Source: Patescibacteria group bacterium (GTDB lineage Bacteria; Patescibacteriota; Microgenomatia; Levybacterales; UBA12049). Taken from it: 64,000 nucleotides of DNA. The notes beneath the pieces are model-generated. The model was not told the DNA's origin. It saw nothing but the letters and a program-made list of their open reading frames with translations, and made no database searches. The stretch spans positions 12,414 to 76,413 of the forward strand of contig DASYZL010000019.1 of the NCBI GenBank assembly GCA_035946335.1. The letters run 5' to 3'. The position numbers were made by a program, and so were the translations under genes. Positions 13,221 to 13,984 of the stretch are shown one piece after another. The stretch's first letter is position 1. The number at the start of each line of letters is the position of its first letter.

Positions 13221-13984
13221 ATCCGTAATATCAGGTATCCCATGAAGATACCTGTTAATAATATTATGATAACCATAATGACGTTTAGCAATATAGAAAG
13301 TTCAATCATTTGGCCAGCTAAAGGGTTTCTACCGATTGCTTCAATACCCCGATGGATAGTTTTTGAAAAAATAAGAAATCCAAGACCAAACGATGCTAAT
13401 ATAACAAGAAGAGCAACGAGTAGCTTCAGTGCGACAACGGGATCTTCATATGTTGCAATTTCGCTTAGATTAAGCACATCGAGAAACGGTATGACAACAG
13501 GACTGGCAAATTGTTGGAAATGAATATTTATGCTTACCGTAATCTGCCTGACCTCATTTTTAGATGCGAAGGAAACAGGGTTGACAGACGCTCCGATAAC
13601 ATATCCACTTGTCACTGCTTTCTGACCTACTCCAGGAATTGTTGACGTCGTAATGAAATCACCTTTTTTTAGGTTACCATTGATTCCCGATACGTTAACG
13701 ACAGCATCACCAATATTAATAACCGGATAAGTTTTTGTTGCTCCAGGAACTTCAATGGTAATTGCAGGATTGGCTATAATCACACCTGTTATTAGCTGAT
13801 CATAAGCTTTATTACTCAAGTGATATCCTTGGGGTGAAAAGGAAACTATATCTCCAACGGCGATATTTTTATCGGCTAAAGGGAAATAGTTTGCGATACC
13901 TATTGAAGAAGCAAGTATTTGAACTGGTAGAATAAAACTTAACAACAGAATAAATAAAAGACATAAACCAATACGTTTTCCCAT
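13217..13984 (-). CDS. atpE: ATP synthase c-subunit (C-terminal ~65 aa hairpin) fused to a ~190-aa N-terminal signal peptide plus extracytoplasmic domain.
   Basis: The C-terminal [22 protein letters not shown]...[12 protein letters not shown] aligns with c-subunit TM1-loop-TM2 (PS3: LIVSRTIEGIARQPE...). The N-terminal part has a signal peptide ([25 protein letters not shown]) and the GD.VS...IPGVG domain also found in the two giant proteins. Confidence 0.65.
   Translation of the reverse strand: [255 protein letters not shown]

What the first reader, a model, noticed from the sequence alone, without database searches (positions are those of the whole stretch)
13560..13865. One ~100-aa domain (GD.VS...G.I..P......IPGV[GA].KA) is shared by the c-subunit fusion and both giant surface proteins.
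Three segments are clearly homologous. c-fusion (13560..13865): [65 protein letters not shown]. Giant 1 (~3900..4230, minus strand): [66 protein letters not shown]. Giant 2 (~37780..38080): GELVSAATQSGVTVQ..VLGIITTNPNTVY..TSLSGNIGLGDAIVSSPIPGVGMIPQQASESVGKALE. This links the energy-conservation machinery to the cell-surface giant proteins through a common extracellular module. It could be a docking or assembly domain, or an intramolecular-chaperone-like domain.
Basis: seen in the sequence. Interest (0 to 1): 0.75.

Follow-up and report, generated by a model that had tools for sequence, protein, structure and literature searches.

The report
Phage-fibre chaperone domain on ATPase c-subunit
The three segments share a real ~130-residue domain related to the self-cleaving folding domain of the phage phi29 tail appendage; the two giant surface proteins keep its cleavage motif, and the third copy, without that motif, sits outside the cell on an ATP-synthase c-like subunit that lacks the ion-binding residue.

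Summary
BLASTP, shuffle tests (z = 10-21), independent HMMs (E 1e-18 to 1e-26) and hhalign (probability 99.9 %, E 8e-36) all show one ~130-aa beta domain. It occurs exactly three times in the window.

Both giants keep the invariant D-x-x-E cleavage motif (TDLAE). They are probably self-processing, tail-fibre-like surface fibres, a very common architecture (about 34,000 cluster representatives).

The c-like protein has lost that motif. Its domain lies between a signal peptide and a c-type hairpin. The hairpin keeps the F1-binding R-N-P loop (113/113 sequences) but never has the ion-binding carboxylate (0/113).

The fusion is monophyletic and is found in about 400 Microgenomates-group species genomes. 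It is the first gene of a c*-b-delta-alpha-gamma-beta-epsilon operon. No a subunit lies within 10 kb in any of 82 loci.

A physical link between the ATPase and the giants is not shown. The function of the external domain is inferred only.

The parts
13217..13984 (-). Gene for the 255-aa c-like fusion protein, first gene of the F1-type ATPase operon
   Evidence: ORF. There are 110 homologues of about 250-290 aa and relatives in 396 species genomes. AF2 model has pLDDT 87.
13910..13984 (-). Signal peptide (aa 1-25), with predicted signal-peptidase cleavage after the nearly invariant Ala25
   Evidence: N-terminal helix 2-18 in the model. A25 is conserved in >= 90 % of the family and is followed by Q/D/S. 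Cleavage is inferred, not shown.
13505..13909 (-). gp12-autochaperone-like beta domain (aa 26-160), non-catalytic copy: S-S-I-G-I-A-N replaces T-D-L-A-E
13442..13504 (-). Linker (aa 161-181) with low-confidence short helices; ends at the conserved Pro just before TM1
   Evidence: pLDDT 55 in this block. The Pro is present in 109/113 sequences, and the Tyr column a few residues into TM1 in 109/113 (Leu in the window protein).
13220..13441 (-). c-subunit-type two-helix hairpin (aa 182-255) without the ion-binding carboxylate
13316..13342 (-). Cytoplasmic polar loop E-A-I-G-R-N-P-L-A (aa 215-223), the F1-binding R-(Q/N)-P loop of c subunits
   Evidence: G-R-N-P is invariant in 113/113 sequences. 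It is the only such motif in the window.
8332..13220 (-). Rest of the operon: b-like (12555..13220), short delta (12313..12558), alpha (10840..12306), gamma (9977..10852), beta (8607..9986), short epsilon (8332..8598)
   Evidence: Pfam and NCBIfam hits. Beta scores 381 bits against F1 beta 6q45. The same gene order is seen in related loci.
2998..8166 (-). Giant 1, 1722 aa: N-terminal TM anchor (aa 30-57), fibre repeats, Kelch propeller, autochaperone domain, coiled coil, C-terminal domain. Starts 166 bp downstream of epsilon on the same strand
   Evidence: No terminator-like site lies between epsilon and giant 1.
3847..4263 (-). Giant 1 autochaperone domain (aa 1302-1440), beginning with T-D-L-A-E (4246..4263), the predicted self-cleavage site
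31777..39792 (+). Giant 2, 2671 aa: two integrase-type SAM-like domains at the N-terminus, TM segment (aa 370-395), fibre repeats, autochaperone domain, C-terminal domain
37738..38286 (+). Giant 2 autochaperone domain (aa 1988-2170), beginning with T-D-L-A-E-W, with an insert of about 60 aa before the last strand
   Evidence: HMM E 6.8e-33. Alignments. Coordinates.

Best explanation
The shared module is a phi29-gp12-type autochaperone domain (MEROPS G2 / Pfam PF11962 lineage). It is a beta-structured fold that is also seen in phage capsid cement proteins.

Shown:
- The three copies are homologous.
- Both giants keep the invariant D-x-x-E motif at the N-terminal edge of the domain.
- The c-like protein does not keep it.
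- The c-like protein is a conserved, monophyletic fusion with the order signal peptide, domain, c-type hairpin.
- That hairpin keeps the R-N-P loop and lacks the carboxylate.
- The fusion gene heads an F1-type ATPase operon that has no a-subunit gene nearby.

Inferred for the giants: they are membrane-anchored, trimeric, tail-fibre-like surface fibres. The domain nucleates trimer folding and then cuts the chain at T|DLAE, as in gp12.

Inferred for the c-like protein: a copy of this module from a Patescibacteria surface fibre was fused once, in an ancestor of the Microgenomates group, to the periplasm-facing N-terminus of subunit c. It lost its protease function. Signal-peptidase cleavage now produces the free N-terminus that self-cleavage produces in the fibres. 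The domain is displayed on the outer face of a c-type oligomer as an oligomerisation or stabilising crown.

Inferred for the complex: because the hairpin cannot bind H+ or Na+ in the known way, the complex is probably not a conventional ion-coupled ATP synthase. It is more likely an F1 ATPase tethered to, or turning, a ring that does not carry ions.
For: Homology:
- BLASTP, shuffles, HMMs and hhalign.
- A database-wide search seeded with the giant 1 domain returned c-fusion family members: P0129 at E 1.3e-15 and P0138 at E 3.6e-9.

Identity of the domain:
- The giant-family profile hits phi29 gp12 (6qz9, 3gqh, 3suc) at E 2e-6. DLAE aligns with D692-F-A-E695, which is the first residue of the released fragment. 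The uncleaved 3SUC chain reads DFAQ at this position.
- Homologues P0142, P0145 and P0147 carry PF11962.
- Jumbo-phage virion proteins are about 40 % identical.

Motif:
- D and E are present in 37/37 aligned giants and fibres. There is no E and there are only 2 D in 120 c-fusions.

c-like hairpin:
- GRNP in 113/113 sequences; carboxylate in 0/113.

Operon:
- Alpha and beta lie next to the fusion in 74/82 loci. The order is c*-b-delta-alpha-gamma-beta-epsilon. No a subunit and no canonical c lie within 10 kb.

Single origin:
- 45/45 sampled c-fusion domains form one clade, closest to Patescibacteria fibres.

F1 appears catalytically intact:
- The beta translation shows Walker A (GGAGVGKT) and GERIREG.
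- Beta scores 381 bits against F1 beta.
Against: - No single sequence reaches the Pfam PF11962 gathering score. Giant 1 scores 22.2 against a cut-off of 25, and giant 2 has no hit.
- In the giants the domain is internal and is followed by 280-500 aa. In gp12 and in phage fibres it is C-terminal.
- gp12-type domains and cement proteins are trimeric (established knowledge), whereas c-rings have 8-17 subunits. A crown on a ring is therefore not an obvious fit.
- TM1 lacks the G-x-G-x-G-x-G packing motif of c-rings, so ring formation itself is not certain.
- Absence of an a subunit and of a canonical c was tested only in the 64-kb window and within 10 kb in 82 loci, not in whole genomes.
- Nothing here shows cleavage, oligomeric state or ATPase activity.
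Confidence: 0.72

Rival explanations
1. The similarity is a by-eye artefact of G/V/S-rich composition and the three segments are unrelated.
For: The giants are compositionally biased and repetitive. Many of the short BLASTP segments are noise.
Confidence: 0.01
2. The domain on the c-ring and the domain on the giants bind each other (for example in mixed trimers), so the fibres are mounted on, assembled by or turned by the ATPase rotor.
For: - All three copies are predicted to lie outside the membrane.
- Domains of this fold self-associate in gp12 and in capsid cement proteins (established knowledge).
- Giant 1 follows epsilon on the same strand with no predicted terminator between them.
- In L005, L009 and L022 a giant ends 45-150 bp upstream of the c-fusion.
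Against: - Only 13 of 82 loci have a giant within 10 kb, and its position and strand vary.
- The c-fusion domains are an old separate clade and are not closest to the giants of their own genome.
- In the gp12 model the giants' copy is cut off after folding.
- No interaction was tested.
Confidence: 0.1
3. The fusion is an accessory or minor ring subunit of an otherwise conventional ion-translocating F1Fo. The a subunit and a carboxylate-bearing c would be encoded elsewhere, as in split atp operons or the mixed c-ring of Acetobacterium woodii.
For: Split atp operons and mixed c-rings exist (established knowledge). Whole genomes could not be searched here. [quoted passage not shown]
Against: - The fusion occupies the c position next to b in the operon.
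- No canonical c or a is present in about 1.1 Mb of flanking sequence from 82 loci or in the 64-kb window.
- In every locus the only c-type hairpin is the fusion.
- The F1-binding loop is invariant, as expected of the main ring subunit.
Confidence: 0.15
4. The N-terminal domain of the c-like protein is a phage capsid cement/decoration protein domain (Phage_cement_2 / XM1 gp53), for example a prophage remnant, rather than a fibre autochaperone.
For: Weak Pfam hits to XM1_gp53_minor_capsid in 12 of 37 members and to Phage_cement_2 in 4 of 37. Foldseek ranks the Pam3 and BB1 cement proteins first.
Against: - All of these Pfam hits are below the curated cut-offs.
- Direct profile homology is to the fibre family (E 7.7e-36).
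- There are no capsid genes nearby, and the gene is a conserved chromosomal operon member in about 400 species.
Confidence: 0.03

Closest known systems
Bacteriophage phi29 pre-neck appendage protein gp12, C-terminal autochaperone (PDB 3GQH, 3SUC; MEROPS G2; Pfam PF11962 Peptidase_G2)
   Different: - In the giants the domain is internal and is followed by a coiled coil and a further C-terminal domain. The carrier is a cellular, membrane-anchored protein.
- In the c-like protein the catalytic motif is gone, the domain is N-terminal behind a signal peptide, and it is fused to a membrane hairpin.
- Single sequences stay below the Pfam cut-off.
F-type ATP synthase subunit c (Pfam PF00137), e.g. Chloroflexus aurantiacus c (9ITJ), Spirulina c (2WIE)
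   Same: Two-helix hairpin with rmsd 1.3-2.4 A. Invariant R-N-P cytoplasmic loop. Position next to b, delta, alpha, gamma, beta and epsilon in the operon.
   Different: - No carboxylate in TM2 (0/113).
- No G-x-G-x-G-x-G motif in TM1.
- An added external domain of about 130 aa and a signal peptide.
- No a subunit nearby.
- Below Pfam significance.
Phage capsid cement/decoration proteins (HFTV1 capsid stabilisation protein 8QSY, Sf11 gp40 9OCB, TW1 5WK1, XM1 gp53 7KMX; Pfam PF09956, PF23982)
   Different: More distant than gp12. Those proteins bind capsids as separate small proteins, and there is no capsid context here.
F1-like ATPases put to other uses (Mycoplasma mobile gliding G1-ATPase, MSC_0618/0619 family)
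   Same: An F1 alpha/beta/gamma core kept in a setting where ion-coupled synthesis is doubtful. NCBIfam places the window's alpha and beta nearly as close to these families as to atpA/atpD. 9io5 appears among the PDB hits.
   Different: Here b, delta, epsilon and a c-type hairpin are all retained, and the best matches are true F1 subunits. No motility or other partner genes are linked. This is an analogy only.
S74-type intramolecular chaperone of endosialidases and the T5 pb1 fibre (Pfam PF13884)
   Same: Same job in fibres: it nucleates the trimer and then cleaves itself off (PMC4690869).
   Different: Different fold and a different catalytic Ser-Lys dyad. PMC4690869 notes that the phi29 chaperone body is beta-stranded and unlike the S74 type. 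There was no S74 hit here.

Membership tests
Peptidase_G2 / phi29 gp12-type autochaperone (PF11962) | Single sequence reaches the Pfam gathering score (25 bits) | tested here: not met
   The giant 1 segment scores 22.2 bits (E 1.1e-4). Giant 2 and the window's c-fusion have no hit. Two of 37 c-fusion homologues have weak hits.
Peptidase_G2 / phi29 gp12-type autochaperone (PF11962) | Profile-level sequence homology to the gp12 C-terminal domain | tested here: met
   The A2 profile hits 6qz9, 3gqh and 3suc at E 2e-6 to 1.3e-4, aligned at the cleavage site. Homologues P0142, P0145 and P0147 carry PF11962. The c-fusion profile is joined to this family by hhalign at E 7.7e-36.
Peptidase_G2 / phi29 gp12-type autochaperone (PF11962) | Fold of the released gp12 fragment (3GQH) | tested here: met
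Peptidase_G2 / phi29 gp12-type autochaperone (PF11962) | Catalytic Asp and Glu (D-x-x-E) at the N-terminal boundary, in the giants | tested here: met
   TDLAE is present in both giants. D and E are present in 37/37 aligned giants and fibres.
Peptidase_G2 / phi29 gp12-type autochaperone (PF11962) | Catalytic Asp and Glu (D-x-x-E), in the c-like fusion | tested here: not met
   The window protein has G-I-A-N at this position. Among 120 c-fusions there is no E and there are only 2 D in these columns. The fusion is a homologue but not a predicted peptidase.
Peptidase_G2 / phi29 gp12-type autochaperone (PF11962) | C-terminal position on a trimeric fibre, self-cleavage and release | tested here: inconclusive
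   The domain follows fibre-like repeats but is then followed by 280-500 more residues. The same layout is seen in the best 150 representatives. Cleavage and trimer state are not testable with these tools.
F-type ATP synthase subunit c (PF00137) | Two-TM helical hairpin | tested here: met
F-type ATP synthase subunit c (PF00137) | Cytoplasmic polar loop R-(Q/N)-P that couples to gamma/epsilon | tested here: met
   G-R-N-P is invariant in 113/113 unique sequences. Its role in F1 binding comes from E. coli genetics (established knowledge).
F-type ATP synthase subunit c (PF00137) | Ion-binding Asp/Glu in the middle of TM2 | tested here: not met
   The column aligned with the carboxylate of 9itj, 4bem and 2wie holds A/V/I/G. 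D+E = 0 of 113, and there are no acidic residues in either TM core.
F-type ATP synthase subunit c (PF00137) | Reaches the Pfam ATP-synt_C threshold | tested here: not met
   No hit for the window protein at E <= 1. Three of 37 homologues have hits, the best at E 0.042.
F-type ATP synthase subunit c (PF00137) | Encoded with the F1 and stalk genes | tested here: met
   The window operon. Alpha and beta are adjacent in 74/82 loci, and the c*-b-delta-alpha-gamma-beta-epsilon order recurs.
F-type ATP synthase subunit c (PF00137) | Works against an a subunit carrying the stator Arg | tested here: inconclusive
   No a subunit was found in the window or within 10 kb in 82 loci, using phmmer and a signature regular expression. 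Sporadic multi-TM neighbours are unrelated proteins. Whole genomes could not be searched, and the a-subunit queries had no positive control.
Phage capsid cement proteins (PF09956 Phage_cement_2, PF23982 XM1_gp53) | Pfam threshold and capsid gene context | tested here: not met
Peptidase_S74 intramolecular chaperone (PF13884) | Sequence match or Ser-Lys dyad | tested here: not met
   No PF13884 hit for any of the three segments at E <= 10. The fold is beta-stranded and gp12-like (PMC4690869).

The most novel reading that the evidence does not exclude
In the Microgenomates-group lineage of Patescibacteria the 'ATP synthase' is not an ion-coupled enzyme. It would be an ATP-driven rotary machine whose carboxylate-free c-type rotor carries a crown of phage-fibre autochaperone domains outside the cell. 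ATP hydrolysis in F1 would turn or remodel a surface structure, possibly by engaging the homologous domains of the giant fibres during their assembly or use.
Probability: 0.1. Interest if true: 0.95.

Novelty: new variant of a known kind. Interest (0 to 1): 0.72.

Why it matters
The giants add little that is new. They are cellular examples of a known phage fibre-maturation module, and about 34,000 cluster representatives carry it.

The c-like fusion is the interesting part. Reviews call it a puzzle that Patescibacteria, which lack a respiratory chain, nearly all keep an F-type ATP synthase (PMC11665869; PMC8080830). In this large lineage the rotor subunit has lost the one residue that every known rotor ring needs to carry ions. 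It has gained an external domain of phage origin, and it has no a-subunit gene beside it, yet it keeps its F1-binding loop and an F1 that looks intact.

If whole-genome searches confirm that no a subunit or canonical c exists, these organisms have converted the F1Fo scaffold to another use. That would change how 'ATP synthase present' is read in metabolic reconstructions of these bacteria, and it would give a concrete target for structural work.

I found no description of this fusion in the searchable literature. That search is limited, so prior description cannot be excluded.

Tried and rejected
- **Pfam and NCBIfam on the full-length giants.** They gave only Kelch and integrase-SAM hits. The domain became visible only when the segments were scanned alone.
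- **phmmer of the giant 1 segment against the PDB.** It found only a chance hydrogenase hit. The profile search was needed.
- **Homologue search with the hairpin alone.** It returned nothing because of the word-index limit. I therefore could not look for carboxylate-bearing intermediates.
- **Ten literature searches and seven papers read**. I found no report of a c subunit with an external domain, or of a carboxylate-less c, in Patescibacteria. One search call failed on term length.
- **Promoter and terminator scan**. It was uninformative beyond showing no terminator-like site between epsilon and giant 1.
- **Ideas rejected:**
  - S74-type chaperone: no hit and a different fold.
  - Compositional artefact: ruled out by shuffles.
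  - Recent exchange of the domain between the giants and the c-fusion: the c-fusion clade is monophyletic and old.
  - Multi-TM ORFs near the operon as hidden a subunits: by inspection they look like EamA-type transporter, prepilin peptidase, UppP and ComEC proteins.

Full report
**1. The observation**

The finding's coordinates lie in a 255-aa ORF on the minus strand (13217..13984). The two giants are 2998..8166 (minus strand, 1722 aa) and 31777..39792 (plus strand, 2671 aa).

Pairwise BLASTP:
- c-fusion vs giant 1: E 1e-7, 37 % identity over 70 aa.
- c-fusion vs giant 2: E 9e-5 over 111 aa.
- Giant 1 vs giant 2 over the domain: E 8e-14.

Smith-Waterman scores against 1000 shuffles of the query gave z = 15.7, 10.6 and 21.4, and no shuffle reached the real score. 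Composition is therefore not the cause.

An HMM built only from homologues of the c-fusion scores giant 1 at 85.9 bits and giant 2 at 59.2 bits. An HMM built only from homologues of the giants' domain scores the c-fusion at 69 bits. No other ORF in the six-frame translation of the window matches either HMM. hhalign of the two profiles gives probability 99.9 %, E 7.7e-36 over 124 columns.

A database-wide search seeded with the giant 1 segment itself returned two members of the c-fusion family, P0129 (E 1.3e-15) and P0138 (E 3.6e-9). Both end in the c-type hairpin.

The domain is about 130 aa long. Its limits are c-fusion aa 26-160, giant 1 aa 1302-1440 and giant 2 aa 1988-2170, the last with an insert.

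**2. What the domain is**

Scanned alone, the giant 1 segment gives a sub-threshold hit to Pfam Peptidase_G2, the 'IMC autoproteolytic cleavage domain' (E 1.1e-4, 22.2 bits against a cut-off of 25). Several homologues carry PF11962 outright.

A profile of the giants' domain family hits the phi29 pre-neck appendage protein gp12 in the PDB at E 2e-6. The conserved DLAE of the family aligns with D-F-A-E at the first residue of the released C-terminal fragment (3GQH starts 'DFAEYFES'). The uncleaved structure 3SUC reads DFAQ at this position.

PMC4690869 describes the phi29 chaperone as beta-stranded and different from the S74 type, and no S74 hit appeared.

The closest annotated phage copies are virion structural proteins of PA5oct-like jumbo phages, at about 40 % identity. 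The family is very large: 34,656 cluster representatives at E <= 0.001. The best 150 are proteins of about 500-6800 aa, in most of which the domain sits a few hundred residues from the C-terminus, as in the two giants here.

**3. The giants**

Each giant has an N-terminal TM segment, long fibre-like repeats, the domain, and then a coiled coil and a shared C-terminal domain. D and E of the D-x-x-E motif are present in all 37 aligned giant and fibre sequences.

By homology with gp12, I infer that the giants are trimeric surface fibres. The domain would help them fold and would then cut the chain at T|DLAE (own knowledge of Xiang et al. 2009; the role of E695 is reflected in the 3SUC sequence).

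The difference from gp12 is that the domain is internal, so the released or retained fragment would be about 420 aa in giant 1 and about 680 aa in giant 2. Cleavage itself is untested.

**4. The c-like fusion**

The protein has four parts:
- An N-terminal signal peptide, with a nearly invariant Ala at position -1.
- The domain.
- A low-confidence linker.
- Two long helices.

In 113 unique family sequences:
- The loop G-R-N-P is invariant.
- The column that aligns with the ion-binding Glu of c subunits holds A/V/I/G.
- No acidic residue occurs in either TM core.

The Glu in the window protein's 'MIELS' is Gln in most homologues, so it is not conserved. TM1 also lacks the G-x-G-x-G-x-G motif.

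The domain copy has lost the catalytic motif: the window protein has G-I-A-N, and among 120 c-fusions there is no E and there are only 2 D in those columns. Signal-peptidase cleavage after Ala25 would leave an N-terminus a few residues before the position where self-cleavage leaves one in the fibres. This is an inference.

With c-subunit topology, where the N-terminus faces outward, the domain is outside the cell.

**5. Distribution and context**

- The fusion has 110 homologues at 90 % clustering, all about 250-290 aa apart from a few outliers such as P0087 (346 aa) and P0110 (392 aa).
- Relatives occur in 396 species-level genomes. Among the 80 loci fetched, the records with informative names are Levy-, Roizman-, Woese-, Shapiro- and Amesbacteria and WWE3. 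Many other records carry other or generic labels.
- In 82 loci, every ORF with the hairpin also has the domain (83/83).
- Alpha and beta are adjacent in 74 of the 82 loci.
- The gene order is c*-b-delta-alpha-gamma-beta-epsilon, with the fusion first.
There is no second c-type hairpin. The few multi-TM neighbours are unrelated proteins.
- F1 looks competent. Beta scores 381 bits against a solved F1 beta and 450.7 bits on atpD, just under the cut-off. The Walker A and GER motifs are visible in the translation.
- Delta is only 81 aa and epsilon only 88 aa.
- In a neighbour-joining tree, 45/45 sampled c-fusion domains form one clade, nearest to Patescibacteria fibre domains rather than to phage-type fibres. 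This points to a single old fusion event.

**6. How it most likely works**

Shown:
- The three copies are homologous.
- The domain is of the gp12 type.
- The catalytic motif is kept in the giants and lost in the fusion.
- The c-type hairpin has the F1 loop but no carboxylate.
- The operon is conserved and has no a subunit nearby.

Inferred:
- The giants self-process.
- The fusion forms a c-type oligomer coupled to gamma/epsilon. Its outer face carries non-catalytic autochaperone domains that help it oligomerise or stabilise it.
- The complex does not move ions by the known mechanism.

The main weaknesses are these:
- This fold is trimeric in known cases, whereas c-rings have 8-17 subunits.
- Whole genomes were not searched for a and c.
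- The a-subunit search had no positive control.

The strongest rival is that the fusion is an accessory ring subunit of a conventional enzyme whose a and c genes lie elsewhere (confidence about 0.15).

Giant 1 follows epsilon with no predicted terminator, and giants abut the fusion in L005, L009 and L022. However, only 13 of 82 loci have one within 10 kb.

**7. Novelty**

The domain family and its role in fibres are known. A c subunit that carries it, lacks the carboxylate and has no a subunit beside it was not found in ten literature searches. Reviews treat the Patescibacteria ATP synthase as a conventional enzyme of puzzling purpose.

I classify this as a new variant of a known kind. The interest lies mainly in the ATPase, not in the shared domain as such.

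Noticed in passing
window 31777..32960 (giant 2, aa 1-395): Giant 2 begins with two integrase-type N-terminal SAM-like (core-binding) domains (Pfam E 1.9e-18; XerC/XerD N-domain hits) and has no catalytic domain. A TM segment and more than 2200 external residues follow. A related giant in L001 has a MerR/HTH_17 N-terminus. These surface fibres seem to carry cytoplasmic DNA-binding heads.
   Followed up: partly
window 12313..12558 and 8332..8598: Delta is only 81 aa and matches only the C-terminal third of OSCP. 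Epsilon is 88 aa, so it has the beta-sandwich only and no regulatory C-terminal helices. The b-like protein (221 aa) has no Pfam hit. In L001 delta is 150 aa, so the b/delta boundary differs between relatives.
   Followed up: partly
window 8166..8332: Giant 1 starts 166 bp downstream of epsilon on the same strand, with no terminator-like site between them, so it may be co-transcribed with the ATPase operon. In L005, L009 and L022 a domain-bearing giant ends 45-150 bp upstream of the c-fusion.
   Followed up: partly
window 3001..3300 and 39500..39789: Both giants end in a shared C-terminal domain of about 100 aa that finishes ...DWWIVN / ...NWLIVN. The same ending is seen in P0111 and P0128. 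No family was assigned.
   Followed up: no
window 5350..6200 (giant 1, aa ~655-940): A Kelch-type beta-propeller is embedded in giant 1 (Pfam Kelch_6 E 1.8e-7; KLHDC2-type E 7e-12).
   Followed up: no
giant 1 aa 1033-1235 and giant 2 aa 1360-1587: The giants share a repeated unit, '...SFAGLVVDNSGxGDLFTASSSGLNRFVITQNGNVGIGTTTP', at 49 % identity across the block (BLASTP E 2e-46). It occurs several times in each protein.
   Followed up: no
window 14729..15977: A DsbA-like thioredoxin-fold protein with a TM anchor and a VKOR homologue are encoded back to back, divergent from the ATPase operon. Together they would form an extracytoplasmic disulfide-forming pair.
   Followed up: no
c-fusion TM helices (window 13220..13441): Polar residues are conserved inside the TM helices of the family although the carboxylate is absent: Ser (91/113), Gln (85/113; Glu in the window protein), Asn (105/113) and Thr (77/113; Val in the window protein). 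A Tyr at the outer end of TM1 is present in 109/113 (Leu in the window protein). Their role is unexplained.
   Followed up: no
L018 10964..11644 and L023 16259..16897: Two related loci encode similar 6-TM proteins with a coiled-coil tail just downstream of epsilon. The family is unknown and they are not a-subunit-like.
   Followed up: no
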